NCBI GenBank assembly: GCA_023150875.1
Contig: JAKLKC010000012.1
Coordinates: 5,565-69,564, forward strand
Direction: 5' to 3'
Length of the DNA stretch: 64,000 bases
From: Myxococcota bacterium
Lineage (GTDB): Bacteria > Myxococcota_A > UBA796 > UBA9615 > JAKLKC01
Made by a program: the position numbers and the translations under genes. The notes beneath the pieces are model-generated. The model saw only the letters and a program-made list of their open reading frames with translations, was not told the DNA's origin and did not search any database. How positions within the stretch are numbered: position 1 is the stretch's first letter; each line of letters starts with the position of its first letter. Below are positions 39,312 through 57,156 of this stretch, piece after piece.

Positions 39312-41348
39312 TCAGGCCACCCCCAGCGCCTTGAACGCCGCCTGCCGCACGTCTCCGAAGAAGATCGGGTCCACCCGCTCCAGGACGTCGGGATGGACGT
39401 CCAGGATCTGGCGCTTGTTCTCGATGGGGACGAGGGCGCGGCGGGCGCCATTGTCCATGGCGACCTGGAGGGGCTCGGTCAGGGAGCGGACCGGCTTGAT
39501 GTTGCCCTGCACGCTCATGTCGCCCAGCACCAGCAGGCTCGCCTGGGGCGGGGACCGGCGCAGGATGGAGTAGGCGGCGACGAAGAAGGCGACGCCGATC
39601 TCCGCCTCCACCCGGTTGCCCAGCAGGTCGATGACCTCGACGTGCAGGTCCGACGTGTCGAGCTCCCGGGCCACGCCGAAGGGGGTCTTCTGGGCGTGGA
39701 GGTGGGCGAAGGCGCGCTGGACCGACTCCTTCATCGCCCCGCTCACGCCCCCCGCCAGCTTCAGCTTGCCGGTCCCCGACGACTGCGACACCTCCACCCG
39801 GTACAGGCCCACCGTGCCGTCCCCGCTGACCGAGGCCGTGTAGACCGTGCCCGGCGGCAGGGGGTCGGTGGAGATCAGGTCGCGCCCCCCCTGCTCGGGA
39901 ACGCCGACGAAGCGCTCCTCGCCCGTCTCGTGGTCGACATAGCTGAAGCTCGTCTGGTAGTACTCGAAGGAGCCCATCTTCTTGAGCTGCTCCTTCACCC
40001 GGCGCCGGCCCTCCAGGGCGAAGGCCAGGACCTCCTCCAGGTCCTCCTTGGAGACCTCGCCGTGGGGGTGCAGGACCTTCACCAGCCCCGACACCGTGCG
40101 CCGCACCGCCTTGCGGTCCCGGGCGTTCAGGTGGGAGCCGAGGTCGAAGTGGTGGTCCAGCGTCTCGGTGAAGTTGAGGCGGCGCAGCTCCCGCATCGCC
40201 TCGGCCAGGTAGTCCACCACGAAGCCGTAGTGGTCGGTGAAGTGTTCGTTGCGCATCTTCGGCACCTCCCACCCCGGCAGGTAGAAGTGCAGCCGGTCGA
40301 TGAACGCCATGTCGTCCCGGATCACGTCCGGCATCGGCGCGAACAGGTGTCCCGTCTGGACCATCACGTCCACCGGCTGCTGGGTGTTGCCGAACATCGC
40401 CACGCTGGCGTAACCCGACGCCTCCTCCTGGCCCCGCTGGTAGCGCCCCGACTCGCAGTAGGTCTTGAGGGTGGTCACCACCTCCTTCGGCATCTTCTGC
40501 AGGTCGGCCACCTCGTCGAAGCCCACCACGTCCCAGATCTGCACCATCCCCTTCTGGCGACCGCTCATGTGGCCGAAGAGGTTGGCCACCGTCGTCGGAC
40601 CCGTCAGCAGCGCCGCGTAGGGCGACAGCTCCTGCACCGCGTAGCTCTTGCCCGTGCCCCGCGGGCCCAGCTCCACCAGGTTGAAGTTCTGCTCGCACAG
40701 GGGCACCAGGCGCGCCAGGAAAAGCAGCTTCAGCCGCCGCGCCATCACCGTCGGCTCGTAGCCCATGCTGCGAAGGAGCAGGTCGATCCACTCGTCGGTC
40801 GTGAACCCGGCCCGCGTCCGCCGGTAGTCGTCCAGGTCGAAGGTGGCGAGCTGGATGGGGGTCAGCTTCTCGATCCAGAACGGGTACCTGCCCCGGTTCT
40901 CGTCGTCGGGCAGGAAGCGCAGGTCCACCTGAGCCCAGATCCCGCCGGTGAGCAGGCGGTCGTAGGAGCGGACGTAGTGCTCGGGCACGCGCACGTGCTG
41001 GTGGCCGAAGTTCGCCAGCTCCGCCCAGTAGTCCGAGTCTACCAGCCGCACCTTCACTTTGTCGATGAAGGTCCAGCGCCCCTTCTCCCGGACCCGGCTC
41101 TGGGCCTTCATGGACTCGTCGGGCCGGATGTAGTTCTCGGCCAGCGTGTCCTTCACCACCTGCAGCCCCATCTGGATCGCCATCTCGTCCGACGAGGCGC
41201 AGTACTTGCCGAGCAGGTACTCCAGGACGAAGACCGGGACGTTCGCCCCCACCTTCACCTTGCGGACGAGGTCCTTGCGGACCACGCGCCCCGCGAAGAG
41301 GCGGTTCACTTTGTCGTCGAGCGCGTCGCGCGTCGGGGGCACGTTCAC
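39312..41348 (-). CDS. brxL: BREX Lon-like protease BrxL
   Basis: N-terminus 'DDKVNRLFAGRVVRKDLVRKVKVGANVPVFVLEYLLGKYCASSDE' matches BrxL family; Walker A 'LGPRGTGKS'; C-terminal Lon-like domain; GTG start. Confidence 0.9.
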   Translation of the reverse strand: MNVPPTRDALDDKVNRLFAGRVVRKDLVRKVKVGANVPVFVLEYLLGKYCASSDEMAIQMGLQVVKDTLAENYIRPDESMKAQSRVREKGRWTFIDKVKVRLVDSDYWAELANFGHQHVRVPEHYVRSYDRLLTGGIWAQVDLRFLPDDENRGRYPFWIEKLTPIQLATFDLDDYRRTRAGFTTDEWIDLLLRSMGYEPTVMARRLKLLFLARLVPLCEQNFNLVELGPRGTGKSYAVQELSPYAALLTGPTTVANLFGHMSGRQKGMVQIWDVVGFDEVADLQKMPKEVVTTLKTYCESGRYQRGQEEASGYASVAMFGNTQQPVDVMVQTGHLFAPMPDVIRDDMAFIDRLHFYLPGWEVPKMRNEHFTDHYGFVVDYLAEAMRELRRLNFTETLDHHFDLGSHLNARDRKAVRRTVSGLVKVLHPHGEVSKEDLEEVLAFALEGRRRVKEQLKKMGSFEYYQTSFSYVDHETGEERFVGVPEQGGRDLISTDPLPPGTVYTASVSGDGTVGLYRVEVSQSSGTGKLKLAGGVSGAMKESVQRAFAHLHAQKTPFGVARELDTSDLHVEVIDLLGNRVEAEIGVAFFVAAYSILRRSPPQASLLVLGDMSVQGNIKPVRSLTEPLQVAMDNGARRALVPIENKRQILDVHPDVLERVDPIFFGDVRQAAFKALGVA

Positions 41349-41352
41349 GGGG

Positions 41353-43920
41353 CTACCTCAGGAGGCTCGTGGGCAGGGCGGGGGACGAGGCGAGGACCGC
41401 CCCCGAGGCCGGATCCAGGACCACCACCTTCACCGACGCCGCGTCCTCGCCGCCCAGCGTCAGGCCGACGTGGGCCTTCGCGCCCGGCCGGACCCGCAGC
41501 ACCCCCCGCTCCCGGTCGAGCTCGCCCCCGCTGACCATGCCCGCCGCGCCCACCTGCTGCTGCTCCGACAGGACCACCACCCGCAGCTCCACCGCCTCGG
41601 GCGCGAACAGCGGCGGCGCCTTCACCTCGACCTCCACCACGAAGACCCGGTTCGTGATGCGCTCGGGCAGCCCCGCCAGGACCACCTCGATCCCGCCCGT
41701 CCCCGGCGCCGGCTCCCCCGCCGGGATCCGGAAGGAGAGGACCGGGATCACCAGCTCCTGGAGGCTCGTGCTCCCGTGGTGGAAGCTCAGGTCCCCGCCG
41801 GCCTTGAACACCCCCAGGCCCGCCGGGAACACGAGCTCCAGGTCGCCGGCGTAACCGAGCTCCCCCGCCGACACCCGCACCGTCCCGGGGGGCGTCGCGC
41901 CGCCGCGGCCGATCCAGACCCGCCGGTGGAGCTCCACCGTATCGCCGCCGGGGGCGTCGGTCTTCATGTCGTCCCCCTTCCGCAGCCCGAAGAGGTGGCC
42001 GTGGTCGGCGGTCACCACGAAGTGCTCCACCCCCGCGGCCGAGAGGCGCCGGGCCGCCCGGGCGAGGTCGCCGATCACCCCCTCCATTGCCCGCCGGGCC
42101 AGGTGGTCGTCCCCTGTCTCGCCCAGGTAGTCGATCTCCGTCGACCGCACCACCACCAGGGACCGGCCCGCGACCCGCCGCCGCAGCTCGGACGCCTTGT
42201 CCTGGAGCACCCGGCTCAGGGTCAGGTCCACGACGTCGGGCACCCGCGCCTGCAGGTACCTCGTCCGCTCCGTCACCCCCGAGAGCGGCACCCCGTCCAC
42301 CAGGGCCGCCACCTTCCCCTTGTGGGCCACCACCGACAGGTTCGCGGACGCCCCCGGCAGCAGCGCCGCCATGCCCACGGGCGTGATGGTGGGCAGGGCC
42401 GCCACGGCGGGGAGCAGGTGGAGGTCCAGGGCCCCCGGGAGCTGCCGCGCGAGCTCCACCCCCATCTCGTACCGCAGCGCGTCGACCAGGAAGTACGCCA
42501 CCGGCCCTCCCCGGGTCGCCACCACGTCCGGGTGGACGCGCGCCTGGTGCAGGACCCCCGGCACGCTCCAACCCGCCCGGGCGAGGGCCGCGGTGAAGCC
42601 CCGGGCCATGTCGTGGAGCAGCCGCTCCGCGTCCCGGAGCACGACGCTGATCGCCTTCTCGAACAGGGACTCGTCGCCGACCCGCCCCCGCCACGTCTCC
42701 AGCGCCCGCTGGGCGGCGTCCACCCGGTGCCACCCGTCCTCGGCGGCGTAGCCCGCCACCCAGGTCTCCGGACCCGCCGAGGTCGGGGGCAGGCTGCCCT
42801 TCACCGCCCCGATCCGCAGGCCGAGCACGGCGACGCGCCGCGCCACCTCCCATTGCTCCTTGCGGGGGACGCGGGTGGCCTCGTCGGTCCACTCCACCCA
42901 GAAGCTCCGCTCGCGATCCTCCACCACCTCCAACGCCTCGCCGAACCGTCCCCGCTCCAGCAGCTCGGCGCACCAGGAGAGCAGGAGCCGCTCCTCGAAC
43001 TCGAAGGTGTCGATGCGCCCCAGGTCCTCCGCCCGCACCTTCGCCCTCGCCAGGTGGAACTCCTGCTCCACCTGCCGGGCCCGGGCCGCGTAGGCCGGGG
43101 CGTGGTCCCGCCGGAAGCGCCGGGCCAGCTCCCGCACCTGCTCGCGTTGGGCCTCGGTCTCTGGCGCCGGCTGCCCGGACATCGACGCGGGCGGAGGCGC
43201 CCGGAGGTCCATCCGGAACTCGCCCAGCAGGACGTAGCGGGCGAGGCGGCCGCGGGCCTGGGCCAGGGGAAGGCCGTCGTCGAGGTGCAGGCCCACCTTC
43301 GAGGCGACGAGGCGGTACAGCTCCGCGGCGGCGCCCTTCTCGGCGATCTCCGCGTCCCGGGCCTCGTCGGCGAGCCACCGGACCAGGATCTCGGAGTCGG
43401 CGGCGTCCCCGAAGATCACCTTCAGCCGCGACGCCTCGCCGCCGTCCCGCTGCGCCAGGAAGGCCACCACGTCGTCGTAGGTGGCGCGCCCTCCCTCCAG
43501 CACCTCGTCGATGACCCCGTCGGTGTAGCGCCGGCGCAGGCAGTCCCGGGCCTGTCGGGGGAAGTCCCAGTCCAGGCGGCGCCCGGCCTTCTGCAGCTCC
43601 ATGAGCACGTCCCGGGCGGGCTCGGGCAGCTCCGCGGGCACGTAGACCAGGAGGGGCGGATCGGGGGGGCCGTCCCCCGCGAAGAAGGGCTCGACGGCGT
43701 CCCGCACCGCGAACCACGAGCCCTCGAAGGTGACGAGGCGGGCCCGACCGTCGCCCAGGTCCACCTCGAAGACGTCGGGGTGCTCGTCGCTCCAGGCACA
43801 CGCGCCGGCCAGGTCGTCGAAGAAGGGCCGGAAGGCGCCGGCGGGGTCCACGACGACGGCGACACCCCGACGCAGCGCGGCGCGCACCTGCTCGGCGAGG
43901 TGGGTGTGGAAGGGGTTCAT
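41353..43920 (-). CDS. pglZ: BREX alkaline-phosphatase-superfamily protein PglZ
   Basis: 'YFLVDALRYEMGVEL', 'VVTADHGHL' PglZ motifs; ATG at 43918-43920 overlaps stop of upstream gene (ATGA). Confidence 0.9.
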   Translation of the reverse strand: MNPFHTHLAEQVRAALRRGVAVVVDPAGAFRPFFDDLAGACAWSDEHPDVFEVDLGDGRARLVTFEGSWFAVRDAVEPFFAGDGPPDPPLLVYVPAELPEPARDVLMELQKAGRRLDWDFPRQARDCLRRRYTDGVIDEVLEGGRATYDDVVAFLAQRDGGEASRLKVIFGDAADSEILVRWLADEARDAEIAEKGAAAELYRLVASKVGLHLDDGLPLAQARGRLARYVLLGEFRMDLRAPPPASMSGQPAPETEAQREQVRELARRFRRDHAPAYAARARQVEQEFHLARAKVRAEDLGRIDTFEFEERLLLSWCAELLERGRFGEALEVVEDRERSFWVEWTDEATRVPRKEQWEVARRVAVLGLRIGAVKGSLPPTSAGPETWVAGYAAEDGWHRVDAAQRALETWRGRVGDESLFEKAISVVLRDAERLLHDMARGFTAALARAGWSVPGVLHQARVHPDVVATRGGPVAYFLVDALRYEMGVELARQLPGALDLHLLPAVAALPTITPVGMAALLPGASANLSVVAHKGKVAALVDGVPLSGVTERTRYLQARVPDVVDLTLSRVLQDKASELRRRVAGRSLVVVRSTEIDYLGETGDDHLARRAMEGVIGDLARAARRLSAAGVEHFVVTADHGHLFGLRKGDDMKTDAPGGDTVELHRRVWIGRGGATPPGTVRVSAGELGYAGDLELVFPAGLGVFKAGGDLSFHHGSTSLQELVIPVLSFRIPAGEPAPGTGGIEVVLAGLPERITNRVFVVEVEVKAPPLFAPEAVELRVVVLSEQQQVGAAGMVSGGELDRERGVLRVRPGAKAHVGLTLGGEDAASVKVVVLDPASGAVLASSPALPTSLLR

Positions 43921-44915
43921 CCGGGGTCCTCGGTCGCGGGCTGGCTCTCGTCGTCCAGGATCACCAGGCGGGTGACTTGCAAGCGCCCCGTCCGGCGTCC
44001 GCCACCCGCGCGTCGGACTCCGTGGACCTCGACCCGTCGGTCGAGGGCCTCGATGGCCGTGTCGAGCAGCTCCGGCTCGAAGCCGCACGGGACCTCCAGG
44101 GCCGCATCGCCGACGTTCCGCAGCGTGAACGACAGGTTGTCGAGGTCGATCTCCCGCAGGTCCCCCGCGTAGGTCAGGACGACCTCCGAGGCGGCGGCGT
44201 CGATGGCCGCGTCGATCCGCCGATGGGCCGCGCGTGTCAGCGAGACGGGGCGCCCGCCGGCCGAAGGTCCCGACAGCTCGACCGCGTCGACCCCTCCCCG
44301 GGGGCGCGGGGCGAGGCGCTTGACTTCGGTCAGCAGCACCCGGCGGAGCCCCGCGTCGGGGACGCGCCGCGCGAGGGCGCCCTCGTCCTCGTCCGACCCC
44401 GCCCAGGCGGCCACCGTCGCGTACTTGTCCAGCGCTTCCCTCGCCGCGCCCGCGACGCTCCCCGCGTCGGCGTCCTCGCGCTCGGGAAGGCGCAGGCCGA
44501 CGCGGACGCTGCCCGGCCGCAGGCTCAGCACCTCCAGGTCGCAGGCCCGCTGGATGGCGAGGGTCGGACGGGTCGAGAGGGACCCGGTGGCGATCCACTC
44601 GGTCCCCGACTGGATCCCCTTGCGGAGCGTGTTGAGGAAGGTGGTCAGGACGCTCGTCGGCGTGGCGGGCCAGTCGATCCCGGCGCCGCGGACTCCGAGC
44701 CAGAGGGGGGCCTCCGCCTCCTCGGCCACCGCCCGCCCGGTGTACTCGCGCAGGTCGGCCTCCATCCGCCGGATCTGGTCGAGGGGCCCCTCCGACATGA
44801 CCGCGAACCAGGCGTCGCTCAGGCGGGGACGGTCCCGCTCCAGAGCGGCCAGCGACTCGTACATCCGAGCGAGCTGCTGGAGCGTGACGCGGAGCTCGGT
44901 GTCGTTGCGGATCAT
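43917..44915 (-). CDS. uncharacterised protein (332 aa) translationally coupled between an NTase-like gene and pglZ
   Basis: ATGA overlaps at both ends (44912-44915 and 43917-43920); no known motifs recognised. Confidence 0.55.
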   Translation of the reverse strand: MIRNDTELRVTLQQLARMYESLAALERDRPRLSDAWFAVMSEGPLDQIRRMEADLREYTGRAVAEEAEAPLWLGVRGAGIDWPATPTSVLTTFLNTLRKGIQSGTEWIATGSLSTRPTLAIQRACDLEVLSLRPGSVRVGLRLPEREDADAGSVAGAAREALDKYATVAAWAGSDEDEGALARRVPDAGLRRVLLTEVKRLAPRPRGGVDAVELSGPSAGGRPVSLTRAAHRRIDAAIDAAASEVVLTYAGDLREIDLDNLSFTLRNVGDAALEVPCGFEPELLDTAIEALDRRVEVHGVRRAGGGRRTGRLQVTRLVILDDESQPATEDPG

Positions 44916-45355
44916 GGCGTCACCTTCAGGATGCCCTTCGCCCGACCGTCCCGGGTGAGCTGGAAGTATTCCATGTGGCGTGCCAGCGCGGGCGTGCCTT
45001 CCGCGCCGACGAGCACGTCGAACCCGTACCTCGTCCCCACGCGCCGGCGGGAGAGGAGGTTGTACTCGAAAGGGCGCAGCTCGGACTGGAAGTCGTGGTC
45101 CGCACGGAGGGCGAGCACGAGGTCGATGTCCCCGGGATCGGGCTCGGCGGTCACGAAGCTCCCGTCGACGGCGAGCCAGGCGATGGCGGGCGTGGTCCTC
45201 GCCTCGGCCAGGAAGGCGCGCAACCTCTCCACGAGCACATGGCGACCGGGATGCCCCAGGCAGAAGCGCCCGAAGCGCTCGCGCACCTCCGCGAAGGTGC
45301 ACTCGTGCACCCCCGGAGGCAGCAGCCCGTCGGGGGTCAGCTCCGGGATCGGCAT
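44912..45355 (-). CDS. nucleotidyltransferase-like small protein (DUF-type, 'TPDGLLPPGVH' family)
   Basis: 'LAVDGSFVTAEPDPGDIDLVL' fits GSx9-13DxD NTase motif; N-terminal 'PELTPDGLLPPGVHECTFAEV' signature. Confidence 0.55.
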   Translation of the reverse strand: MPIPELTPDGLLPPGVHECTFAEVRERFGRFCLGHPGRHVLVERLRAFLAEARTTPAIAWLAVDGSFVTAEPDPGDIDLVLALRADHDFQSELRPFEYNLLSRRRVGTRYGFDVLVGAEGTPALARHMEYFQLTRDGRAKGILKVTP

Positions 45356-45482
45356 GGCGCCTCGGGGAGAAGCGGGGAGAGCTGGCGGGCGGAACGGCTC
45401 ATGCACGGTCCCCGACCGGCCTGCGGTCCGCCACATCGGGCGCACCGATCCGGGGGATGCTGCCGGAGGGCGGGAGCGCGGC

Positions 45483-45542
45483 GACGCCCCGGCGCCGCGC
45501 GGCGCGCACCAGCTCGGCGAGGTGGGTGTGGAACGGGCTCAT
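45483..45542 (-). pseudogene. remnant of a second pglZ 5' end (20 codons, MSPFHTHLAELVRAARRRG...)
   Basis: 45483-45542 ~ 43861-43920 at nt level incl. ATGA junction; similarity stops abruptly. Confidence 0.5.
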
Positions 45543-46228
45543 CCGGGGCCCTCGGCGCGGAGGCGGCCCTGGCGGCGGAGCTGCCTCGCCACCAGCGGGC
45601 ACTCGCAGGCCAGCCAGGAAAGGGGCCACGGTTCCGGCGGATCGTCCGGGTCGGTCCGCAGGCCGTGGTACCGGTCGTGGTATTCCGCACGTGCGTCACA
45701 GAAGACGGGGTCGTTGAGGCCCAGCCTCGAGATCGTCGCCTCGACCTTCGCCCGGACCTCGGCTTCCAGGTCGTCCGCCGGGGCGATCTCGAAGCTCGCC
45801 ACGTCCAGCGTGAACCAGTGGTCCTGGACCTCGAAAGGGTCCAGCACGTCCTCGTGGTCGCCCTTGTTGGTGTTCACCTGGGCGGCCGCGAGGCGGAAGT
45901 TCGACCACTCGTAGGCGAGGCGCCGGTCCCTCGACTTGGGGACGAAGTGGTCGACCGTGGCGGCTCCCGTCGCCTCGTGGATGCGCATGCCCAGGTAGCC
46001 GCACACGTTCCCGTAGCGCCGCCGGAGCTCGGGCAGCGCGCGGGTCCAGAACGTGGGGAGGTTCTCCACGGGGATGGCGTCGATGGTCGTCGCCACGACG
46101 CTCCGCTTGCGGCCTCGCCGTGGGGGACCCGAGGTATCACCGACGAGTTCACGGAGGGCTCGCTCGCCCGGGATCCTCACGAGCTCGTCGAAGTCGGCCG
46201 GTTCCTCGGCGGGATCGACGTGGATCAC
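45539..46228 (-). CDS. HNH endonuclease (PtuB-like)
   Basis: 'CGYLG...VDHFVPKS...WSNFRLAAAQVNTNK' HNH motif; GTGA overlap with upstream ATPase. Confidence 0.7.
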   Translation of the reverse strand: MIHVDPAEEPADFDELVRIPGERALRELVGDTSGPPRRGRKRSVVATTIDAIPVENLPTFWTRALPELRRRYGNVCGYLGMRIHEATGAATVDHFVPKSRDRRLAYEWSNFRLAAAQVNTNKGDHEDVLDPFEVQDHWFTLDVASFEIAPADDLEAEVRAKVEATISRLGLNDPVFCDARAEYHDRYHGLRTDPDDPPEPWPLSWLACECPLVARQLRRQGRLRAEGPG

Positions 46229-50500: not shown

Positions 50501-51617
50501 GCAGCGCCTCCCGCGTCGCGTAGTCCTCGCGCAGGCTCCTCCCGGTGGCCTCCGACGCCGGGGAGCCCTCGTCCTCCCACGCCTCCTCGTAGATCACCAG
50601 GAGCAGGTCGAAGGCGTAGAGCAGGAAGTGACCCGACCCGCAGGCCGGGTCCAGGATCTTCAGGTCCCGCGGGTCCTTCTTCGCCCGGAAGGGCAGGTGG
50701 ACCGGCCGCTGCTCGGGCGGGACCGTCTCGTCGGGCTCGGGCGCGGCCTCGCCCTCCGCCAGGAACACGGTGCCCGGCCGGCGCACGAGGTAGCGGCAGA
50801 GCTCCGCGAGCCGCGTCCCGCCCCGGCGCATCTCCAGCCAGGTCTGGCCGAGGGTGTTGTCGGTCAGGAACTCCACGACGTAGCGCGGGGTGAAGAACTG
50901 GTTGCGGACCGCGAGCTCCCGGCTGTCGCGGGGGGCCTGGGACTCGGCCCGCATCCGCCGCCGCTCGTCCTCGCCGTTGAAGTACTGGTAGACCCAGCCG
51001 ATGGTCTCGTCCTCGCCCCACACCTGGGCCAGCTCGGGGTCGTTCAGGACCCCCAGCAGATCCTCCAGCGCGTTGCGCCGGGGCCAGAGCAGGCTCGCGG
51101 GGTCGCGGCGGTCGAAGAGGACCCGCACCTCGCGGCCCACCTCGTCGAAGAGGCACTCCAGGTAGAGGCGGTAGGCCTCGTGGGGCCGCACCTTCAGCCC
51201 CTCGGCCAGGCCCTGGAACTCGCGGAAGCCCGACGATGCCAGGGCCCCCCTCACGCTCTCCCTCACGATCCCCCGCGCCTCCAGCATCTTCAGGGCGACG
51301 AAGCGGTTGAGGGTGGTGAAGGCGCACTCCCGGGTGAGCGCCGCCACCGCCTCGGGCGCGGTCCGGCCCTGGGCGCGGTGGTGGGCGACGGCGTCCACCA
51401 GCCTCCGCCGCACCCGGCGGGCCGCGGGGTCCTCATCGAGATGGCGCCCCGCCTCCTCCGCCACCGTGCCGTCCGGGCGGATGTCGAAGGTGCCCTCGAG
51501 CTGGGCGGCGATCTCCCCCTCGAGCAGGCGGCGGGCGGCCTGGGTGGCGCGCTGGATGCGGTTGCGGGTGTCCTTGTCCATGCCTCGGGGCCGTGGGCGC
51601 GGGGCGGCGGGGATCAT
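47511..51617 (-). CDS. pglX: BREX N6-adenine methyltransferase PglX
   Basis: 1368 aa; 'VVLMNPPFG' motif IV at ~49948-49962, 'DPACGSGHFL' motif I; position between brxC and pglZ. Confidence 0.85.
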   Translation of the reverse strand: MIPAAPRPRPRGMDKDTRNRIQRATQAARRLLEGEIAAQLEGTFDIRPDGTVAEEAGRHLDEDPAARRVRRRLVDAVAHHRAQGRTAPEAVAALTRECAFTTLNRFVALKMLEARGIVRESVRGALASSGFREFQGLAEGLKVRPHEAYRLYLECLFDEVGREVRVLFDRRDPASLLWPRRNALEDLLGVLNDPELAQVWGEDETIGWVYQYFNGEDERRRMRAESQAPRDSRELAVRNQFFTPRYVVEFLTDNTLGQTWLEMRRGGTRLAELCRYLVRRPGTVFLAEGEAAPEPDETVPPEQRPVHLPFRAKKDPRDLKILDPACGSGHFLLYAFDLLLVIYEEAWEDEGSPASEATGRSLREDYATREALRRELPGLVLRHNLYGVDIDPRAAQIAALALWMRAQRAWKDLGLDRAKRPLVTRTNVVIAEPMPGEADLLDEFCWGLDPDVAALVRRVFEEMRLAGEAGTLLRIEDTVRQELEKRFSRGPMYARLDRERWEEVEGKVYEALREYAEGATTGNAYRRRLFAEDAARGFAFIDVCRGRYDVVLMNPPFGRLPDSPFLLLRRNRSLSYVEASAALVDRAAELTNGPIGVVAPNSVLTTKRLGRWRRHKFNDRFAILVDAGMGLMDDAVVRACYFVLAGAPGSAEDSVFVVSGEPGQSAEALLAASAGRPRDPAWRARRQIVMSVAHQVLTGGALASTQIGEQSESFEPAAGTARQGPLTHDDERFLRIWTEVNARDLSPKCWARYAKGGEFQPFYGDVHLVLNRRQDGAELDAVNMAINGQTAQCRTGSSWWYRGGATYSYRSTLGFAVRNLPRGVIMSIVGPAVISITESVSNAYLVGWLNAAVTRKAVMSRSTASAFPTGLVKSLNWRWPQEEVKKRVEHASMIAISAARALRGLDELDPTFGGMPAHIYGTGVGRGLVADEHCRRKVELHKFNEALAVIDDEIAQLFGVTASDDVRKLSTAWSPEFGAAEVVMPVVSALVGTAYGRFDIRLATGERPLPPEPDPFDPLPPCSPGMLTGEDGLPADAPPAGYPIAFPTDGILVDDPGHERDLLGCIRRVFDVVFGDDGDERLREATALLDPGADDLRPWLRRAFFAEHVQRYSRSRRKAPIYWRLGTPSGSYSVWVYIHRFARDTLHRVLHDHVAPKLRFEEGRLAHLRAEVGGTPTPSQRRALAEQEAFVDELRAFRDEVARVAPLWDPDLDDGVILNAAPLHRLFAHTRSWQKECEGAFARLCEAEYDWSHLAMRLWPERVVPKCALDRSLAIAHGLEDVFWCPDEDGRWSPREVEGDVVESLVRERTSPAVKDALAKLTHTPPPAPARRSPGRPARAAPERPRRGQERSHQLDLALPKAPPAEDS

Positions 51618-51663: not shown

Positions 51664-54600
51664 CTACTGCACCCAAACCTTCTTGCCCTCCCCGATCAGC
51701 CGCTCGCACTCGTCCCGCAGGGCCTGGATCGCCGCGTCGAGCTGCTCGGGGGTCTCGACGCCCCCCGGGAAGAACGACGACACCCGCACCCGCACCACGC
51801 GGTTGCCGTCGATCATGCGGAGCATCTCCTCCGTCGCCGCCTGGAGCCGCGCCGGGCACGCCTCGGTCTCGGCGCGCACCTGGGGGATGGGGGTGGGGGG
51901 CGGCAGGGCGGTGGTGGCGGGGCCCGCGAGGGGGGCCTCCACCCGGGCCTGCTGGGCAGCGTCGAGCTGGGACCACTCCGGCGCCCCGCGCAGGCGCTCC
52001 ACGGCGGCGGCGTAGGCGGCGCGCCGGGCCTCGACGGCGGCGTCGAAGCGGGCCCGCCAGGCGGCGCCGACCTCCCGGGCGTGCTCGTCGATCCGCGGCA
52101 GCTCCCGGAAGAAGGTCTCGCGCCGCAGCAGGTCGTCCAGCTCCTCGGCCCGCGCCGCCAGGCCTTCGGGGAGGTCCGGCTCCTCCTTCAGGAACGGCCA
52201 CTGGCGGCGCACCGCGTCCCGGGCACGGGCGAGGTCCAGGAGGCGCGGCTCGGTCAGGGCGTCGTCCAGCTCGGCGGCGCGCTTGATGCCCGCCTTGATC
52301 TCCCCGCAGCTCGCGTTGAACGTGGTGATGGCGTTGTCGTCGCCGCCCGTGCGGATCACGCGGACCTGCTCCAGGGCGCGGGCCAGCACCTCGGCCCCCG
52401 GCAGGTCGTCGCGGACCAGGCGGTTGTGGACGTCCTGAAGGGCCTGCTCGTGGCGATGGACCTCGTCCTTGATGGCGCGGGCGACGACTCCCGGCTCCAG
52501 CTCGGCGATCTCCTTGCCGAACACGTCGCGGAAGTGCCCGTCCGCCTTGACCAGCTCCCCGTAGTCGACGCTGACCTTCGGCCGGAACGTCGCCTGCCGG
52601 AAGAGGTTGTTGTTGGTGAACGTCGTCCGCGCGTCGAGGGAGAGGGCGTTGTCGATCACCTGCCCCCGGGAGACCGCCTCCACCTTCCCGGCGCGCAGAA
52701 GGCTCGCCACCAGCAGGCGCACCACGTCGAAGTCCCAGCCGAAGGGCTCCTTGCCCAGCTCGTCGGCCAGCGCCCGGCCGCTCACCAGCTCGCCATAGGC
52801 CGCCTTGTGGGCGATCCGGTTCATCACCTCGGAGAGGGGACCGCCCTCGGTGCGGAACGCGGGCTTGCCCCTCGTCTCCTGGACGAGCTGGAGCTGGGAG
52901 AAGACCGGCGGGAGGCCCCGGAGGTTCTCGGTGGTCAGCAGGGCCTCCAGGTCCTTCGCGGACACCTTCGCGGCGCCGTCCGAGAAGCGGTCGAAGACCT
53001 CGGGGAGCACCCTCGCGAGCACGCCCGCGCAGGCGCGGCCCACGTCGGCGGCGCCGGCCTCGGGGTTGCGCTCGTTGCCGCGGAAGTAGACGGTGCCGGA
53101 GAGCAGGGCTTCCCGCAGGCGCCGCCTCAAGTCGTCCTGGTGGCGCTGGCGGCGGCGCTTCTCCTCGGCCACGAGGGCGGTCTCGTCCCGGGTGGTGGCG
53201 TTGCGCTCGCGTCGGGCCAGGATCTCCTGGCTGCGGAAGACCTCCTCGGTCACGCGGTCCACGGCGTCGTCCAGGCGGGCGATCCAGAAGACGGCGGTGC
53301 GCTCCTCGCGGCTGCGCTGCCGCCACTCCTCGCGCAGGCGGCCCCACTCGGCCTCGTCCGGCGCCAGGGAGACGTGGACCGGAACGTCGCCGGGGGTGAC
53401 GAGGCGGTTGTTCAGGAAGAGCCCGGCCCGGAAGGGCTTGACGTCACGCAGGAGGTGGGACGGCTGGGGCGTCCACAGCCCGTCCACCACCTCGGCGTGG
53501 ATCCGGGCGGCGTCGGCGGGCCGGAGGGAGAGCTTGCCCCGCTGGCCCTCCCAGTCGTCCTCGGCGGGCGTGGGGATCCGGTAGCCGTCCTCGCCCAGGC
53601 GGATGCGGCCCGCGGCGACGAGGGCGTCCAGGGCCGCCTTGACCTCGGGGAGCTGGGAGTCGGCGGTGACGCTCGGGTGGAGGGTGGCGGCGACGTTCTC
53701 GGCGGTGCGGGGGATCCGCTGCTCGTACTGGAGCAGGCAAACCGCCTTGGCGACGGCCTGGGCGCGGGGGTGCGGCACCTCGCGGCCGATGTCGTCGATC
53801 TTCCGGCGCACGTCGCTCGAGACGTTGCCCGAGACGAGGTCGTACACGCGATCGAGGGTGACGAGGGTCCCCTCGGGCTTCGAGGCGAGGTCCACCTCGG
53901 GGTGGATGAGGAGCTGCTGGGCGAGCTTGATGATGGTGCGGGCGGCGCCGCCGACGTGTTTGCTGGCGCCGCCCTGGGTGCGCAGGCCCGAGACGACGTT
54001 GATCACGAGGTCGATCTGGTAGGGGAGGAGGGGGTAGAGGTCGATGAAGCCCTGGTCGGTCAACTCGGGCAGGGCGACGTTGGGGGCGTGGACGCGGGTG
54101 TGGTCCACGAGGCGGCCCCGGTGCTCCCGGTGGAGGGCGCGCAGGCGGGCCTGGGCGTCGGCGTGCTTCTCGAGGACGCGGCGGCTGGTGACCTCGGAGA
54201 TGTCCGAGGGCTCCAGGTGCACCTGGAGGGGGAAGCGGTCCTTCACCTTCGGCAGCTCGATGCGCGTCTGGTCGAGGCCGCCGACCAGCTCCGAGAGGGC
54301 CTCCTGGGAGGTGACCATGACCCAGATCCGCCCGCCGCCCCGCTGGCCCAGGCGCTCGACCACGGCGCGGAGGTCCTCGAGCTTACCGCCGTCCTTGGCG
54401 ACGAACTGGCCGACCTCGTCGATGACGAAGAGCAGGTTGCGCTTTTCGGGCCGGCGCCTCGACAGCAGCTCCAGGCAGCGGTCCGCCAGCAGGGCCGGGG
54501 TGACGTCGCCCCGGCCCTTCGCCCCCTTCACCCAGGAGTCGGGGGCGTTGTAGGTGCGGGGCTCCAGGGCGTGCATGACCGCCGAGGCCCGGCCGATGGC

Positions 54601-55218
54601 GAGGGCGGGCAGGCCCTTGTCGTGGTCCCAGGCCCGGCGGTCGTGGAGCTCGGCGTACTTCGCGACGAAGGCGCCGAGGCGGCCCTCGGCCTCCAGCGTG
54701 ATCTCCAGCTCGGCCAGGTCCAGCTCCCGGGCGTAACCGAGCCGCTGGAGGAAGAGGCGGTACATGATCTCGGTGATCGACTGGTTTCCGGCGCGGATCC
54801 CCCGGTCGGTCGAGACGTCGAAGATCACCGCCTCGGTGGGGACCATCTCGTTCACCTGGCGGAGCAGGACCTCGGCCTTGTTGTCCTTGGGGACGCTGAG
54901 CCGCCGGGCGAGGAGGTCGCCCGCGCGCGCGCCGCCGCCCAGGTCGCGGTCCTCGATGGCGAGGCCTAGCATCTTGGCGAAGCTGGACTTGCCCGAGCCG
55001 AAGAAGCCCGAGATCCACACCGCGGTGCCGTCGTGGGGCTTGCGGAACGCCTCCAGGTAGGCCTCGAGGATGGCGATCTGCTGCCTCCGGATGGAGTCGG
55101 TGACGACGTACTCCGACAGCTCGTGGCGGATCCGCGCCAGGTCGTCGTCGTCGACCTTCACGACCTCCTCGATCCGGCGGTCGACGTCGCGGGCAAAGAG
55201 CTCGGCGATGCGTTCCAT
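51664..55218 (-). CDS. brxC: BREX ATPase BrxC
   Basis: 1184 aa; P-loop 'GFFGSGKSSFAK', 'LLFVIDEVGQF' Walker B; N-terminus 'MERIAELFARDVDRRIEEVVKV' typical. Confidence 0.9.
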   Translation of the reverse strand: MERIAELFARDVDRRIEEVVKVDDDDLARIRHELSEYVVTDSIRRQQIAILEAYLEAFRKPHDGTAVWISGFFGSGKSSFAKMLGLAIEDRDLGGGARAGDLLARRLSVPKDNKAEVLLRQVNEMVPTEAVIFDVSTDRGIRAGNQSITEIMYRLFLQRLGYARELDLAELEITLEAEGRLGAFVAKYAELHDRRAWDHDKGLPALAIGRASAVMHALEPRTYNAPDSWVKGAKGRGDVTPALLADRCLELLSRRRPEKRNLLFVIDEVGQFVAKDGGKLEDLRAVVERLGQRGGGRIWVMVTSQEALSELVGGLDQTRIELPKVKDRFPLQVHLEPSDISEVTSRRVLEKHADAQARLRALHREHRGRLVDHTRVHAPNVALPELTDQGFIDLYPLLPYQIDLVINVVSGLRTQGGASKHVGGAARTIIKLAQQLLIHPEVDLASKPEGTLVTLDRVYDLVSGNVSSDVRRKIDDIGREVPHPRAQAVAKAVCLLQYEQRIPRTAENVAATLHPSVTADSQLPEVKAALDALVAAGRIRLGEDGYRIPTPAEDDWEGQRGKLSLRPADAARIHAEVVDGLWTPQPSHLLRDVKPFRAGLFLNNRLVTPGDVPVHVSLAPDEAEWGRLREEWRQRSREERTAVFWIARLDDAVDRVTEEVFRSQEILARRERNATTRDETALVAEEKRRRQRHQDDLRRRLREALLSGTVYFRGNERNPEAGAADVGRACAGVLARVLPEVFDRFSDGAAKVSAKDLEALLTTENLRGLPPVFSQLQLVQETRGKPAFRTEGGPLSEVMNRIAHKAAYGELVSGRALADELGKEPFGWDFDVVRLLVASLLRAGKVEAVSRGQVIDNALSLDARTTFTNNNLFRQATFRPKVSVDYGELVKADGHFRDVFGKEIAELEPGVVARAIKDEVHRHEQALQDVHNRLVRDDLPGAEVLARALEQVRVIRTGGDDNAITTFNASCGEIKAGIKRAAELDDALTEPRLLDLARARDAVRRQWPFLKEEPDLPEGLAARAEELDDLLRRETFFRELPRIDEHAREVGAAWRARFDAAVEARRAAYAAAVERLRGAPEWSQLDAAQQARVEAPLAGPATTALPPPTPIPQVRAETEACPARLQAATEEMLRMIDGNRVVRVRVSSFFPGGVETPEQLDAAIQALRDECERLIGEGKKVWVQ

Positions 55219-55229: not shown

Positions 55230-55817
55230 TCAGAAGATGCGGGGCCGGTAGTTGTGCTCGGCGTCGATCGCGCCCATGAAGCGCAGGCCGGCGGGGCCGT
55301 CGGTCTCGCCGGGGTAGAAGAGCACCGTGGGAACGGCCACCTGGCCCACGAGCTGCTCCAGAAGGGCCGAGGTGCGGTAGAGGGGGTACAGGGCGCCGGC
55401 GCGGACGAGGAGGACGACGTCCCGGAGGGGATCAGCGTCCTTCGGGACCCGGGCGGCGACGAGGCGGTCGAGGCGCTGGTACTCGGCCAGGACCGAGAAG
55501 GCGGTCTCGATCGCCAGGGGGAGGCCGGCCTCGCGCTCCGCCGCGGCGAGGGCGCCGCCCCCCAGCCCCTCGGCAGCGAGGGCGGCGGCGAGGCACTCGG
55601 CGAGGGAGATCCGGGTGACGCGCTTGCCCTTCTGGCCGAGGCGGGTGGCGAGGAGGGTGACCTCCTTGCGGAGCTCGAGCTCGTCCTCGGGCGGGTAGAC
55701 GAAGACCACGAAGGGCATGTCGTGGTAGGCGCTGATCCCCGGGCGGGGGTCCTCCTTGATCAGCGCGGGCTCGAGCCGCCCGGTCAGGCGGGCCTTCCAA
55801 GAGGGAGTGGGGGTCAA
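55230..55817 (-). CDS. brxB: BREX protein BrxB (DUF1788)
   Basis: 'VVFVYPPEDELELRKEV' BrxB N-terminal signature; inferred TTG start with RBS aggag, overlapping brxA stop (TTGA). Confidence 0.7.
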   Translation of the reverse strand: MTPTPSWKARLTGRLEPALIKEDPRPGISAYHDMPFVVFVYPPEDELELRKEVTLLATRLGQKGKRVTRISLAECLAAALAAEGLGGGALAAAEREAGLPLAIETAFSVLAEYQRLDRLVAARVPKDADPLRDVVLLVRAGALYPLYRTSALLEQLVGQVAVPTVLFYPGETDGPAGLRFMGAIDAEHNYRPRIF

Positions 55818-56602
55818 GGCGACAACTCCTCCCGCGCGAACTCCTCGGCGGACGCGCGGGGCAGGCGGAGCTCGGCGACGCTGCCGGCGACCTCGTAGCG
55901 GAGCCGGCCGAGCTGGTGGAGGCGGAACAGCTCCCGTTGCACGTCGTCGGGCCCCATGAGGTACATCCGCCAGTCCGGGGCGTGGACCAGGCGGTGGGGG
56001 TTGGGCTCCTCCCGGGCGGCGGCGTGGAGCAGGTAGAGGAAGGCGTCGTCGGGCAGGTGGTAGGGGACGAACTCCCGGGCGAGGGTCCCGGTCATCAGCC
56101 CGAAGTCCACGGCCATGCGGAGCAGGCCCGAGGCGACGCGGGAGGTGGTGGAGGGGGACCAGCGCTCCTTGATCTCCACGTCCTCGCGGTCGTGGAGGCC
56201 GTCGAGGTAGGGCGCGACGTCCTCGGTGCGGATCCGGAAGGCGCCGGCGGCGTGCTGGTCGTAGAGCCACCGCGACAGGAAGTCGCGCACCAGGAACTCG
56301 TCCCGGGTCATGTGCCACAGGAGCAGGGGGCGGAAAGTCTCGAGGGCGAGGCCGCGCCGGGCCAGCTCGACGAGGACTCGGTCGCGGCCCTCGGTGTCGA
56401 AGCGACGGTTGACGGTCTTGGCCAGGTCCCGCCACCAGTTCGCGCTGCCGGCGCCGACGGGGTCCGCGGACTTGAGGCGGTCGAGGTTCCACTTCCGGGG
56501 CCGGGAGAGGTCCCAGTGGCGGAAGAGGTCGTAGGTGGGCTCGACGAGGGCCCCCTTGATGACGGTGAACGACGAGACGACCCGGGCGCGCGCGCCGGCC
56601 AT
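55814..56602 (-). CDS. brxA: BREX protein BrxA (DUF1819)
   Basis: N-terminal 'VVSSFTVIKGALVEPTYDLF' matches BrxA 'YSSGF...' start; ATG overlaps upstream stop (TGATG). Confidence 0.7.
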   Translation of the reverse strand: MAGARARVVSSFTVIKGALVEPTYDLFRHWDLSRPRKWNLDRLKSADPVGAGSANWWRDLAKTVNRRFDTEGRDRVLVELARRGLALETFRPLLLWHMTRDEFLVRDFLSRWLYDQHAAGAFRIRTEDVAPYLDGLHDREDVEIKERWSPSTTSRVASGLLRMAVDFGLMTGTLAREFVPYHLPDDAFLYLLHAAAREEPNPHRLVHAPDWRMYLMGPDDVQRELFRLHQLGRLRYEVAGSVAELRLPRASAEEFAREELSP

Positions 56603-57156
56603 CACCCCTCCAGGCGGGCGTAGGGGATGGCGGGGGCCTCCCTCTCGCCCCGGAAGAAGCCGGCGGCGAGCAGGCCGAGGGTCTCGTCGTCGAGGGCGCA
56701 CACCCCGGGGAGGGGGACGGCGCGCCCGTCGACGGAGCGCTTGAGGTGGCGGGCCCGGGCCAGCTCGGCCTCGCCGAGGACCTCCAGGGAGCGCAGGCCG
56801 TGGAGCACGTCGCCCTGCAGCCCCGTCAGCGCGGCGAAGAAGGGCGCCCAGCGGTCGGGCTGGTCCATCCAGTCCTGGAGGTGGTCCTCGAAGACCTCCT
56901 CGACCTCGGGGGGGAGGCTGAACAGGGTGGCGCAGGCCGGGGGGTTCCAGAGCTCCCGCGTGCGGGCGCGGGCCACGGCGAGCGCGACCCGGGCCTGGGC
57001 GAACGGGGCGGTGCGAGGGAAGCTCCGCTCGTACAGGGTGCGTCCCAGCGGCCCGAGGACGCCCCGGGTGTTCCACCAGCCCAGCCGGTCCATCTCGCCG
57101 AGGCGCGCCACCACGAGGCGGAGCCGGAAGAGGCGGTCGAAGTCGATCGCGTGCAT
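56602..57156 (-). CDS. hypothetical protein (185 aa) translationally coupled upstream of brxA
   Basis: ATG at 57154-57156; stop overlaps brxA ATG; no recognised motifs. Confidence 0.5.
   Translation of the reverse strand: MHAIDFDRLFRLRLVVARLGEMDRLGWWNTRGVLGPLGRTLYERSFPRTAPFAQARVALAVARARTRELWNPPACATLFSLPPEVEEVFEDHLQDWMDQPDRWAPFFAALTGLQGDVLHGLRSLEVLGEAELARARHLKRSVDGRAVPLPGVCALDDETLGLLAAGFFRGEREAPAIPYARLEG

What the first reader, a model, noticed from the sequence alone, without database searches (positions are those of the whole stretch)
39312..57156. Complete type-1 BREX locus chained with overlapping start/stop codons, carrying extra cargo between pglX and pglZ
All six canonical genes are recognisable: brxA 55814-56602, brxB 55230-55817, brxC 51664-55218, pglX 47511-51617, pglZ 41353-43920 and brxL 39312-41348. 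They are on the minus strand in canonical order. Most junctions are 1-4-nt start/stop overlaps (TGATG, TTGA, GTGA, ATGA). Unlike the textbook operon, ~3.6 kb holding four extra genes plus a pglZ 5' remnant sits between pglX and pglZ.
Basis: partly seen in the sequence, partly recalled or inferred. Interest (0 to 1): 0.8.

Follow-up and report, generated by a model that had tools for sequence, protein, structure and literature searches.

The report
BREX operon with two nested defence modules
This is an intact BREX anti-phage operon from an uncultured Myxococcota bacterium with two smaller defence modules (Septu and a nucleotidyltransferase/OB-fold pair) nested between its methylase and phosphatase genes, an arrangement already known to be common.

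Summary
Profile searches assign all six ORFs to BrxA, BrxB, BrxC, PglX, PglZ and BrxL. They lie on the minus strand in canonical order, and 6 of 10 junctions are 1-4-nt start/stop overlaps. The 3.6 kb between pglX and pglZ holds four genes. These are Septu (PtuA ATPase plus PtuB HNH nuclease) and a conserved DUF6932 nucleotidyltransferase-like gene paired with a 332-aa protein that has an OB fold (a distant PADLOC PDC-M63 relative). The pglZ 5' remnant is real: 77 nt, 91% identical, running from -13 to +64 around the ATG.

- There is a seventh gene, brxE (56602-57156).
- This PglX lacks a ~65-aa C-terminal tail present in six relatives.
- PglX residues 554-986 are compositionally foreign (GC3 0.61 against 0.97).
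- The locus sits between a viperin gene and a serine recombinase gene.

Relatives carry other defence modules at the same junction. Published surveys report genes between pglX and pglZ in about 7,000 of 9,000 genomes. The locus is therefore a new member of a known kind. The duplication, a possible footprint of stacked insertion, is the only mildly new point.

The parts
56602..57156 (-). brxE (184 aa), the first gene of the operon. Its stop overlaps the brxA start (TGATG).
   Evidence: NCBIfam BrxE family NF033447: 125.9 bits against a cut-off of 40. The BREX-6 BrxE model NF033448 gives 53 against 80, so it is not met. PADLOC BrxE 7.6e-7. GC3 0.98. Relatives L011 and the P0004 locus have a BrxE gene in the same place.
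55814..56602 (-). brxA (262 aa)
   Evidence: PADLOC BrxA 4.9e-83. Pfam PF08849 48.7 bits against 23.
55230..55817 (-). brxB (195 aa, TTG start overlapping the brxA stop)
   Evidence: PADLOC BrxB 3.1e-51. Pfam PF08747 54.5 bits against 26.8.
51664..55218 (-). brxC (1184 aa), P-loop ATPase
   Evidence: PADLOC BrxC E = 0, 1576 bits, full length. NCBIfam NF033441 779.7 bits against 400. Walker A GFFGSGKS at residue 71.
47511..51617 (-). pglX (1368 aa; the alternative start at 51581 gives 1356 aa), N6-adenine methyltransferase and specificity subunit. It lacks the ~65-aa C-terminal tail found in relatives.
   Evidence: PADLOC PglX E = 0. NCBIfam BREX-1 PglX 550.1 bits against 500. Motifs DPACGSG (residue 323) and NPPF (residue 554) are present. 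The tail is present in 6 of 6 relatives and absent here.
48660..49958 (-). Compositionally foreign segment inside pglX (residues 554-986), covering the expected target-recognition region.
   Evidence: GC3 is 0.61 inside and 0.97 outside, and the left change-point falls at the N of NPPF. Identity to relatives is 23-34% here, against 54-74% in the flanking parts. The nearest non-self protein among 1.84 billion representatives is 40% identical.
46225..47511 (-). ptuA (428 aa), the Septu ABC-type ATPase. Its start overlaps the pglX stop (TGATG).
   Evidence: PADLOC PtuA PDLC00307 1.9e-141, residues 1-421 against profile 1-419 of 424. Pfam AAA_21 and AAA_15. Walker A GDNGLGKS and Walker B IVLIDE. 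The nearest solved chains are PtuA proteins, with local similarity only.
45539..46228 (-). ptuB (229 aa), the Septu HNH nuclease. Its GTG start overlaps the ptuA stop.
   Evidence: PADLOC PtuB PDLC00348 3.7e-60, full length. Weak NCBIfam PtuB and TIGR02646 hits, both below cut-off. HNH-type H...N...N/H spacing is present.
45479..45555 (-). pglZ 5' remnant: a copy of the last 13 nt before the pglZ ATG plus its first 64 nt. Its ATGA overlaps the ptuB stop. It opens a 47-codon ORF (45399-45542) with no coding signature.
   Evidence: Alignment, direct repeat D2, and blastn 77 nt, 90.9%, E = 4e-23. Gene callers on sibling contigs call a 47-aa ORF here. No such copy was found in 7 relatives.
44912..45355 (-). 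x3 (147 aa), a DUF6932 protein with a minimal nucleotidyltransferase-type motif (GS-x11-DID).
   Evidence: Pfam PF22014 90 bits against 27. PADLOC PDC-M63A 7.7e-18. Motif at residue 65. It is always followed by an x4 homologue in 6 of 6 independent contexts.
43917..44915 (-). x4 (332 aa), an uncharacterised partner of DUF6932 with a helical N-terminal part and a C-terminal OB fold. Its stop overlaps the pglZ start (ATGA).
41353..43920 (-). pglZ (855 aa)
   Evidence: PADLOC PglZ 1.4e-238, full length. Pfam PF08665 69.1 bits against 25. The best NCBIfam model is BREX-6 PglZ at 258.5 bits, below its 400 cut-off.
39312..41348 (-). brxL (678 aa), a Lon-like protease/ATPase and the last gene of the operon.
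   Evidence: TIGR02653 977 bits against 628. Pfam BrxL_N, BrxL_ATPase and Lon_C. Walker A GPRGTGKS. It is 87-88% identical to relatives.

Best explanation
The locus is one co-oriented, largely translationally coupled 11-gene operon: brxE-brxA-brxB-brxC-pglX-[ptuA-ptuB]-[DUF6932-x4]-pglZ-brxL.

The seven brx/pgl genes form a BrxE-containing subtype of type-1 BREX. By analogy with studied type-1 systems, PglX methylates a short non-palindromic host motif, and the complex blocks replication of unmethylated phage DNA.

Two self-contained modules are nested at the pglX/pglZ junction.
- Septu: an ABC-type ATPase plus an HNH nuclease.
- A conserved pair of a DUF6932 nucleotidyltransferase-like protein and an OB-fold protein, distantly related to the PADLOC candidate PDC-M63.
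They are most likely independent extra defence layers that ride on BREX transcription and transfer.

The two modules arrived in separate events. Septu was joined to pglZ first. The second module then entered at the pglZ start by recombination and left a 77-nt duplicate of the pglZ 5' end behind.

Shown here: gene identities, order, overlaps, intact motifs, the duplication, recurrence of cargo at this junction in relatives, and occurrence of the DUF6932-x4 pair outside BREX. Septu's independence of BREX rests on published surveys and was not tested here.
Inferred: co-transcription, anti-phage activity, independence of the layers, and the order and mechanism of insertion.
For: - All BREX families are assigned with strong scores.
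- Catalytic and NTP-binding motifs are intact in BrxC, BrxL, PglX, PtuA and x3.
- All 11 genes are on one strand, and 6 of 10 junctions overlap.
- The same architecture occurs on contigs from 5 sequencing runs.
- The cargo-less form brxE-A-B-C-X-Z-L exists in relatives. This shows the four genes are additions.
- Cargo genes have GC3 of 0.90-0.93, against 0.96-0.98 in the BREX core.
- Relatives hold other defence modules at the same junction: Septu in L014, HEC-01A in L010 and PDC-S31 in L002. L008 holds PDC-M28 inside a split pglX.
- DUF6932-x4 is a fixed pair with a 4-nt overlap in 6 of 6 contexts. These include non-BREX sites, a plasmid-like element and a methylase/restriction operon.
- The 77-nt pglZ duplication flanks only the second module.
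- Published work reports embedded defence genes in BREX as frequent and 96.7% co-oriented (bioRxiv 10.1101/2024.01.29.577857). It also reports genes between pglX and pglZ in about 7,000 of about 9,000 genomes (PMC11341690).
Against: - No expression, methylation or phage data exist for this organism, which is an uncultured Myxococcota MAG.
- PglX lacks a C-terminal tail conserved in all six relatives examined, so BREX activity could be impaired.
- PglZ is below every NCBIfam subtype cut-off.
- The window's x4 does not itself hit PDC-M63B, and PDC-M63 is only a candidate system.
- The 183-nt gap between ptuB and x3 breaks translational coupling and could hold an internal promoter. The promoter scan is uninformative in this G+C-rich DNA.
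- The order of insertion rests on one duplication.
Confidence: 0.85

Rival explanations
1. The nested genes are not autonomous systems. They are recruited auxiliary or backup effectors that work as part of BREX. For example, the PtuAB nuclease could execute restriction or abortive infection when BREX is inhibited, and the OB-fold/NTase pair could act as a sensor.
For: The genes are tightly coupled in translation to pglX and pglZ. A very distant BREX locus (L018, BrxC 24% identical) carries the same two modules, with DUF6932-x4 between brxC and pglX and a PtuAB-like pair between pglX and pglZ. PMC12839542 interprets HNH plus ABC-ATPase pairs inside BREX loci as auxiliary or backup effectors.
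Against: DUF6932-x4 is found without any BREX genes nearby in L015, L016/L017, L019/L020 and L021/L022. Septu is mostly found outside other systems, with only 0.7% embedded in Hma (bioRxiv 10.1101/2024.01.29.577857). Close relatives of this BREX work with no cargo or with different cargo.
Confidence: 0.15
2. The BREX part is crippled. Insertion of ptuAB removed the conserved C-terminal tail of PglX, and the specificity segment was replaced. The locus would then mainly be a scaffold that expresses the nested modules.
For: The ~65-aa tail (..LDALRAALH..GA.KSELLAASGLDE..GEVER.G..RGTRY..) is present in 6 of 6 relatives. It is absent here, and no copy was found elsewhere in the window. L014, which also carries Septu at this junction, keeps the tail.
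Against: All seven BREX ORFs are full length with GC3 of 0.96-0.98, which fits continued selection. The motifs are intact. The same sequence occurs on contigs from five sequencing runs. The E. coli and Salmonella PglX proteins that have been studied are about 1,200-1,225 aa and have no such tail. That comparison rests on my own knowledge and on the domain map in PMC11341690.
Confidence: 0.1
3. The locus should be filed as type-6 BREX rather than type 1.
For: A BrxE gene is present. PglZ scores best against the BREX-6 PglZ model, 258.5 bits against 109.9 for BREX-1 type A.
Against: There is no BrxD or BrxHI gene among the 11 genes of the locus or its scanned neighbours. BrxL is present, at 977 bits. 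PglX passes the BREX-1 cut-off and fails the BREX-6 one, 334.8 against 900. BrxE fails the BREX-6 equivalog, 53 against 80. PMC12839542 treats types 5 and 6 as subtypes of type 1.
Confidence: 0.05

Closest known systems
Type-1 BREX (brxA-brxB-brxC-pglX-pglZ-brxL), as studied in E. coli HS, Acinetobacter and Salmonella
   Same: All six families are present, in the same order and on one strand. The NTP-binding and methyltransferase motifs are intact. PglX passes the NCBIfam BREX-1 model, and BrxL and BrxC pass theirs.
   Different: There is an extra brxE gene at the 5' end. PglZ is closer to the BREX-6 model and below all NCBIfam PglZ cut-offs. Four nested genes are present. The host is an uncultured Myxococcota bacterium with about 73% G+C.
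BREX loci with a defence system embedded between pglX and pglZ: Salmonella D23580 (PARIS ariAB) and E. fergusonii pEFER (BrxU) (PMC11341690)
   Same: A second defence system sits co-oriented inside the BREX operon. Placing both published examples between pglX and pglZ rests partly on my own knowledge. The part of PMC11341690 I read says PARIS lies within the Salmonella BREX locus and surveys the genes found between pglZ and pglX.
   Different: Here there are two stacked modules, not one, and of different kinds (Septu and a PDC-M63-like pair). A 77-nt pglZ 5' duplication lies between them.
Hma systems with embedded Septu, and the 'guilt-by-embedding' phage defence candidates of PADLOC (bioRxiv 10.1101/2024.01.29.577857)
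   Same: Septu is nested inside a methylase-containing multi-gene defence system. The DUF6932 gene matches PDC-M63A. That is a PADLOC phage defence candidate (PDC) model. According to that paper, PDC models were built from genes embedded in BREX, DISARM or type I RM.
   Different: The host system is BREX, not Hma. The partner protein x4 is too divergent to hit PDC-M63B itself.
Type-6 BREX (brxE-brxA-brxB-brxC-brxD-pglX-pglZ-brxHI)
   Same: A BrxE family gene lies directly upstream of brxA, and PglZ resembles the BREX-6 model.
   Different: There is no brxD and no brxHI helicase, and brxL is present instead. BrxE is below the BREX-6 equivalog cut-off.

Membership tests
BREX type 1 | BrxA (DUF1819) protein | tested here: met
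   Pfam PF08849 48.7 bits against 23; PADLOC 4.9e-83.
BREX type 1 | BrxB (DUF1788) protein | tested here: met
   Pfam PF08747 54.5 bits against 26.8; PADLOC 3.1e-51.
BREX type 1 | BrxC P-loop ATPase | tested here: met
   NCBIfam NF033441 779.7 bits against 400. PADLOC 1576 bits. Walker A present.
BREX type 1 | PglX adenine methyltransferase of the BREX-1 kind | tested here: met
   NF033452 550.1 bits against 500. Motif I and NPPF are present. It lacks the C-terminal tail of its closest relatives.
BREX type 1 | PglZ alkaline-phosphatase-like protein | tested here: met
   Pfam PF08665 69.1 bits against 25; PADLOC PglZ 1.4e-238, full length.
BREX type 1 | PglZ of the BREX-1 subtype (NCBIfam type A or type B equivalogs) | tested here: not met
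   TIGR02687 109.9 bits against 270.35. NF033450 66.3 against 400. The best model is BREX-6 PglZ at 258.5 against 400.
BREX type 1 | BrxL Lon-like protein | tested here: met
   TIGR02653 977 bits against 628.25. Pfam BrxL_N, BrxL_ATPase and Lon_C.
BREX type 1 | Canonical gene order on one strand | tested here: met
BREX type 1 | Motif-specific m6A methylation of host DNA and exclusion of unmethylated phage | not testable with these tools
   This needs methylome sequencing and phage challenge.
BREX type 6 | BrxE protein | tested here: inconclusive
   The BrxE family model NF033447 is met (125.9 bits against 40). The BREX-6 BrxE equivalog NF033448 is not met (53 against 80).
BREX type 6 | BrxD ATPase and BrxHI helicase in place of BrxL | tested here: not met
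   None of the 11 locus genes or the scanned neighbours hits BrxD or BrxHI. BrxL is present.
Septu | PtuA ABC-type ATPase | tested here: met
   PADLOC PDLC00307 1.9e-141, full length. Walker A and B present. The retron-type NCBIfam PtuA model is far below its cut-off (53.8 bits against 500).
Septu | Adjacent PtuB HNH nuclease | tested here: met
   PADLOC PDLC00348 3.7e-60. It has a 4-nt overlap with ptuA. TIGR02646 is below its cut-off (26.7 bits against 52.15).
Septu | Anti-phage activity | not testable with these tools
   This needs cloning and phage assays.
PADLOC candidate PDC-M63 | Component A (DUF6932) | tested here: met
   PDC-M63A 7.7e-18. Pfam PF22014 90 bits against 27.
PADLOC candidate PDC-M63 | Component B next to A | tested here: inconclusive
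   The window's x4 has no PADLOC hit at E <= 0.01. Of 32 x4-family members, 8 hit PDC-M63B weakly (best 8.8e-4) and 9 hit PDC-M32A (best 1.8e-7).

The most novel reading that the evidence does not exclude
The start of pglZ may act as a reusable entry point where defence modules are stacked one behind another by recombination that uses the conserved pglZ 5' end as its homology or attachment segment. Each module then ends in the same short junction (CCGAGG...CC.GATG, carrying the ribosome-binding site and the start codon), so the next gene stays translationally coupled. The 77-nt duplication would be the first footprint of this process. The co-occurrence of Septu and the DUF6932/OB-fold pair in two very distant BREX loci (this window and L018) would then reflect selection for that particular combination with BREX.
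Probability: 0.2. Interest if true: 0.55.

Novelty: new member of a known kind. Interest (0 to 1): 0.3.

Why it matters
BREX operons with nested defence systems are already documented on a large scale, so this locus adds an example rather than a concept. Three details could be useful.

1. The 77-nt duplicate of the pglZ 5' end is a rare physical trace of how a module gets embedded. The published surveys I read leave that question open.
2. The DUF6932 plus OB-fold pair is a compact, uncharacterised two-gene module. It was found here in BREX, in a methylase/restriction operon, on a plasmid-like element and standing alone. That makes it a reasonable candidate for functional testing.
3. The PglX gene shows a clean replacement of its specificity region that starts exactly at the NPPF motif. 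This illustrates how BREX target specificity can be exchanged in nature.

Tried and rejected
- **Genome scan.** The genome-contig scan with PglZ returned only two loci. Relatives were instead reached through protein search and contig look-ups.
- **Other pglZ remnants.** I searched 7 relatives for further pglZ 5' remnants by blastn and by an N-terminal peptide motif. None were found, so the footprint is so far a single case.
- **A third junction copy at pglX/ptuA.** The pattern CCGAGGNNNCCNGATG hits only the three module boundaries, with 0.08 hits expected. That pattern was written after seeing the three sites. The unbiased consensus of the two true copies, allowing 3 mismatches, gives 9 hits against 11.2 expected. 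The result is inconclusive, because ribosome-binding-site constraints could explain the resemblance.
- **The missing PglX tail.** I looked for it elsewhere in the window by tblastn and found nothing in the cargo region.
- **A donor for the foreign PglX segment.** The search for homologous proteins returned nothing, not even the protein itself. The exhaustive representative search found the protein itself and then nothing above 40% identity. Plasmid PglX genes are only 23-27% identical.
- **Signals in the locus.** The promoter and terminator scan of the locus was uninformative. The RNA fold of the ptuB-x3 gap had a z-score of +1.44. Rfam gave no hit in the locus.
- **x3 and x4 in other collections.** x4 has no match in the plasmid collection. 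x3 has no sequence match in the PDB. A literature search for 'DUF6932' found no papers.
- **Mosaic origin.** Comparing upstream and downstream BREX genes with relatives showed no clear discordance in identity ranks.


Full report
**Checking the observation.** The window has 70-80% G+C, so raw ORF lists are crowded with artefacts. A third-codon-position GC plot and start-codon mapping single out an unbroken series of minus-strand genes from 57156 down to 39312. One search gives the junctions. Six of the ten are 1-4-nt start/stop overlaps:
- brxE/brxA: TGATG
- brxA/brxB: TTGA
- pglX/ptuA: TGATG
- ptuA/ptuB: GTGA
- x3/x4: ATGA
- x4/pglZ: ATGA

The other four are gaps of 11, 46, 183 and 4 nt. The interval between the pglX stop and the pglZ start is 3,590 nt and holds four coding regions.

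**Family assignment.**
- BrxA: PADLOC 4.9e-83; Pfam 48.7 bits against a cut-off of 23.
- BrxB: PADLOC 3.1e-51; Pfam 54.5 against 26.8.
- BrxC: PADLOC E = 0, 1576 bits; NCBIfam 779.7 against 400.
- PglX: PADLOC E = 0; NCBIfam BREX-1 PglX 550.1 against 500.
- PglZ: PADLOC 1.4e-238; Pfam 69.1 against 25.
- BrxL: TIGR02653 977 against 628.

The Walker A motifs of BrxC and BrxL and methyltransferase motifs I and IV (NPPF) of PglX are intact.

It is a BrxE family protein (NF033447, 125.9 bits against 40). It is below the BREX-6 BrxE equivalog cut-off (53 against 80). Second, PglZ scores best against the BREX-6 PglZ model (258.5 bits) and is below every NCBIfam PglZ cut-off. No BrxD or BrxHI gene is present. 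The system is therefore a seven-gene, BrxE-containing form of type 1. The literature I read still describes BrxE as exclusive to type 6, while treating type 6 as a subtype of type 1 (PMC12839542).

**The cargo.**
- 46225-47511 is PtuA (PADLOC 1.9e-141, full length, Walker A and B present).
- 45539-46228 is PtuB (PADLOC 3.7e-60, HNH-type spacing). Together these two form a Septu system.
- 44912-45355 is a DUF6932 protein (Pfam 90 bits against 27; PADLOC PDC-M63A 7.7e-18). It carries a GS-x11-DID motif typical of minimal nucleotidyltransferases.
- 43917-44915 (x4, 332 aa) hits nothing in Pfam, NCBIfam or PADLOC.

DUF6932 and x4 are adjacent with a 4-nt overlap in all six independent contexts examined:
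- this window;
- a plasmid-like element (L015);
- a site between a methylase and a restriction enzyme in Planctomycetota (L016/L017);
- a distant BREX locus (L018);
- a site next to another methylase (L019/L020);
- a stand-alone site (L021/L022).

The pair behaves as an autonomous two-gene module that is often nested in modification-based defence operons.

**The pglZ remnant.** Immediately at the ptuB stop there is a copy of the pglZ start region. Positions 45479-45555 match 43857-43933 over 77 nt at 90.9% identity (E = 4e-23). The copy runs from 13 nt before the ATG to nucleotide +64 and then diverges completely. It opens a 47-codon ORF that gene callers pick up on sibling contigs. The surrounding 183-nt gap has no codon-position GC signature.

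Because the repeat begins upstream of the ATG, the last codons of ptuB (..EGPG*) and of x4 (..EDPG*) are encoded by the same duplicated junction sequence. The simplest reading has two steps. First, ptuAB was joined directly to pglZ. Then the DUF6932-x4 module entered at the pglZ start. It entered either by single-crossover integration of a circular intermediate carrying a pglZ 5' segment, or by an unequal join between two BREX loci with different cargo. Either route leaves the older pglZ 5' end stranded.

None of seven relatives shows such a copy, so this is one footprint and not yet a rule. A possible third copy of the junction at pglX/ptuA could not be separated from ribosome-binding-site constraints.

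**Relatives.** The window's PglZ occurs identically on contigs from five sequencing runs, all consistent with the same architecture over the stretch each contig covers. PglZ relatives at 62-73% identity are all metagenomic.
- Two have the cargo-less operon brxE-A-B-C-X-Z-L (the P0004 locus and L011).
- L001 also lacks cargo.
- L014 carries a Septu of the same PADLOC subfamilies at the same junction. It is only about 40% identical.
- L010 carries a HEC-01A ATPase with a partner gene. It also has a PD-T7-3-like gene between pglZ and a fragmented brxL.
- L012 carries the same partner gene plus a decayed ATPase C-terminus.
- L008 carries PDC-M28ABC between the two halves of a split pglX.
- Geomonas propionica (L002) carries PDC-S31.
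- The very distant BREX in L018 carries both DUF6932-x4 (between brxC and pglX) and a PtuAB-like pair (between pglX and pglZ).

Cargo genes in the window have slightly lower GC3 (0.90-0.93) than the BREX core (0.96-0.98). All of this fits later acquisition and turnover of defence modules at this junction.

**Comparison with the literature.** The arrangement is well known. Went et al. report that about 7,000 of about 9,000 genomes with linked pglZ and pglX have genes between them. BrxU and PARIS are the commonest recognised systems there (PMC11341690). [quoted passage not shown] They derived the PADLOC candidates (PDC) from such embedded genes. They state that the biological significance of embedding remains to be explored (bioRxiv 10.1101/2024.01.29.577857). 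PMC12839542 lists HNH nucleases paired with ABC ATPases inside BREX loci.

**How it most likely works.** By analogy with studied type-1 systems, PglX with BrxB, BrxC and PglZ methylates a host motif and blocks unmethylated phage DNA. Septu and the DUF6932/OB-fold pair are probably separate layers expressed from the same transcript. Published examples suggest such layers cover phages that evade or inhibit BREX. Every functional step here is inference. Only the gene content, integrity and architecture are shown.

The main caveat concerns the PglX tail. All six relatives examined end PglX with a conserved ~65-aa tail after a 'QLPLDL' linker. That tail has a weak, sub-threshold match to a winged-helix-like Pfam domain. 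The window's PglX stops at that linker, exactly where ptuA begins, and no copy of the tail exists elsewhere in the window. L014 also has Septu at this junction and keeps the tail.

**Side observations.**
- PglX residues 554-986 (48660-49958) have GC3 of 0.61 against 0.97 outside. The left boundary falls exactly at the N of NPPF.
- This stretch is only 23-34% identical to relatives, while the flanks are 54-74% identical. It covers the position of the target-recognition domain mapped in Salmonella PglX (PMC11341690).
- Nothing closer than 40% identity exists among 1.84 billion representative proteins. This looks like a recent swap of the specificity region from an unknown donor of lower G+C.
- The operon is flanked by a prokaryotic viperin gene (38219-39052; NCBIfam 282.6 bits against 180).
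- Beyond a 1.15-kb stretch without a convincing gene lies a large serine recombinase. This suggests a mobile defence island.

**Verdict.** The thing described is a new member of a known kind. Interest is modest. The pglZ duplication and the uncharacterised DUF6932/OB-fold module are the parts worth following up.

Noticed in passing
window 48660-49958 (minus strand, PglX residues 554-986): This segment inside pglX has GC3 of 0.61 against 0.97 in the rest of the gene, and it starts exactly at the NPPF motif. It is 23-34% identical to relatives where the flanks are 54-74% identical. The nearest database protein is 40% identical. It looks like a horizontally replaced specificity (TRD) region from an unknown donor of lower G+C.
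   Followed up: partly
window 47511-47530 (3' end of pglX), compared with L001, L008, L010, L011, L012 and L014: All six relatives end PglX with a conserved ~65-aa tail (..SELLAASGLDE..GEVER.G..RGTRY..). The window's PglX stops at the preceding linker, where ptuA starts. No copy of the tail was found elsewhere in the window.
   Followed up: partly
window 38219-39052 (+) and 39046-39306 (+): A prokaryotic viperin gene (PADLOC pVip 1.8e-83; NCBIfam 282.6 bits against 180) is followed by an overlapping 86-codon ORF. Both are convergent with brxL, and the stops are 5 nt apart. Together with BREX they form a defence island.
   Followed up: partly
window 35296-38100 (-): A 934-aa protein with a good coding signature lies next to the viperin gene. 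It has no hit in Pfam, NCBIfam or PADLOC.
   Followed up: no
window 57157-58312 and 58313-60082 (+): About 1.15 kb upstream of brxE has no convincing gene and no Rfam match. It is followed by a divergent large serine recombinase (Resolvase, Recombinase and Zn_ribbon_recom domains; probable start at 58313). The BREX and viperin island may be an integrated mobile element. Its ends were not mapped.
   Followed up: partly
L018:1-10475: A very distant BREX locus (BrxC 24% identical) carries both cargo types: brxC-[DUF6932-x4]-pglX-[PtuA-like, PtuB-like]-pglZ. Its pglX and ptuA matches are broken into several pieces, which may be frameshifts or assembly errors.
   Followed up: partly
L001, L008, L012 and L014 (pglX region): In several relatives PglX is encoded as two ORFs split near residues 640-720, inside the variable segment. 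In L008 a three-gene PDC-M28 module sits between the two halves.
   Followed up: partly
L012:9768-10004 and L010:7992-8657 / L012:9131-9775: The 78-aa ORF just before pglZ in L012 resembles the C-terminus of a PtuA-like ATPase (..APHAPLVLASMEP..), so it is probably a decayed remnant. The 221-aa gene in L010 and the 214-aa gene in L012 are homologous cargo genes with no family hit.
   Followed up: no
L010:12604-15655: A PD-T7-3-like gene (PADLOC 4e-14; precomputed Pfam AF_1680) sits between pglZ and brxL. In this relative brxL is broken into four ORFs.
   Followed up: no
window 5987-6407 (+): Two tRNA-Ser genes (anticodons CGA and GGA) and the small SRP RNA lie here. They are unrelated to the finding.
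   Followed up: no
The word-indexed protein search returned no hit for the PglX middle segment, not even the organism's own PglX. The exhaustive representative search did find that protein at 100% identity. A negative result from the indexed search should not be trusted for this kind of sequence.
   Followed up: yes
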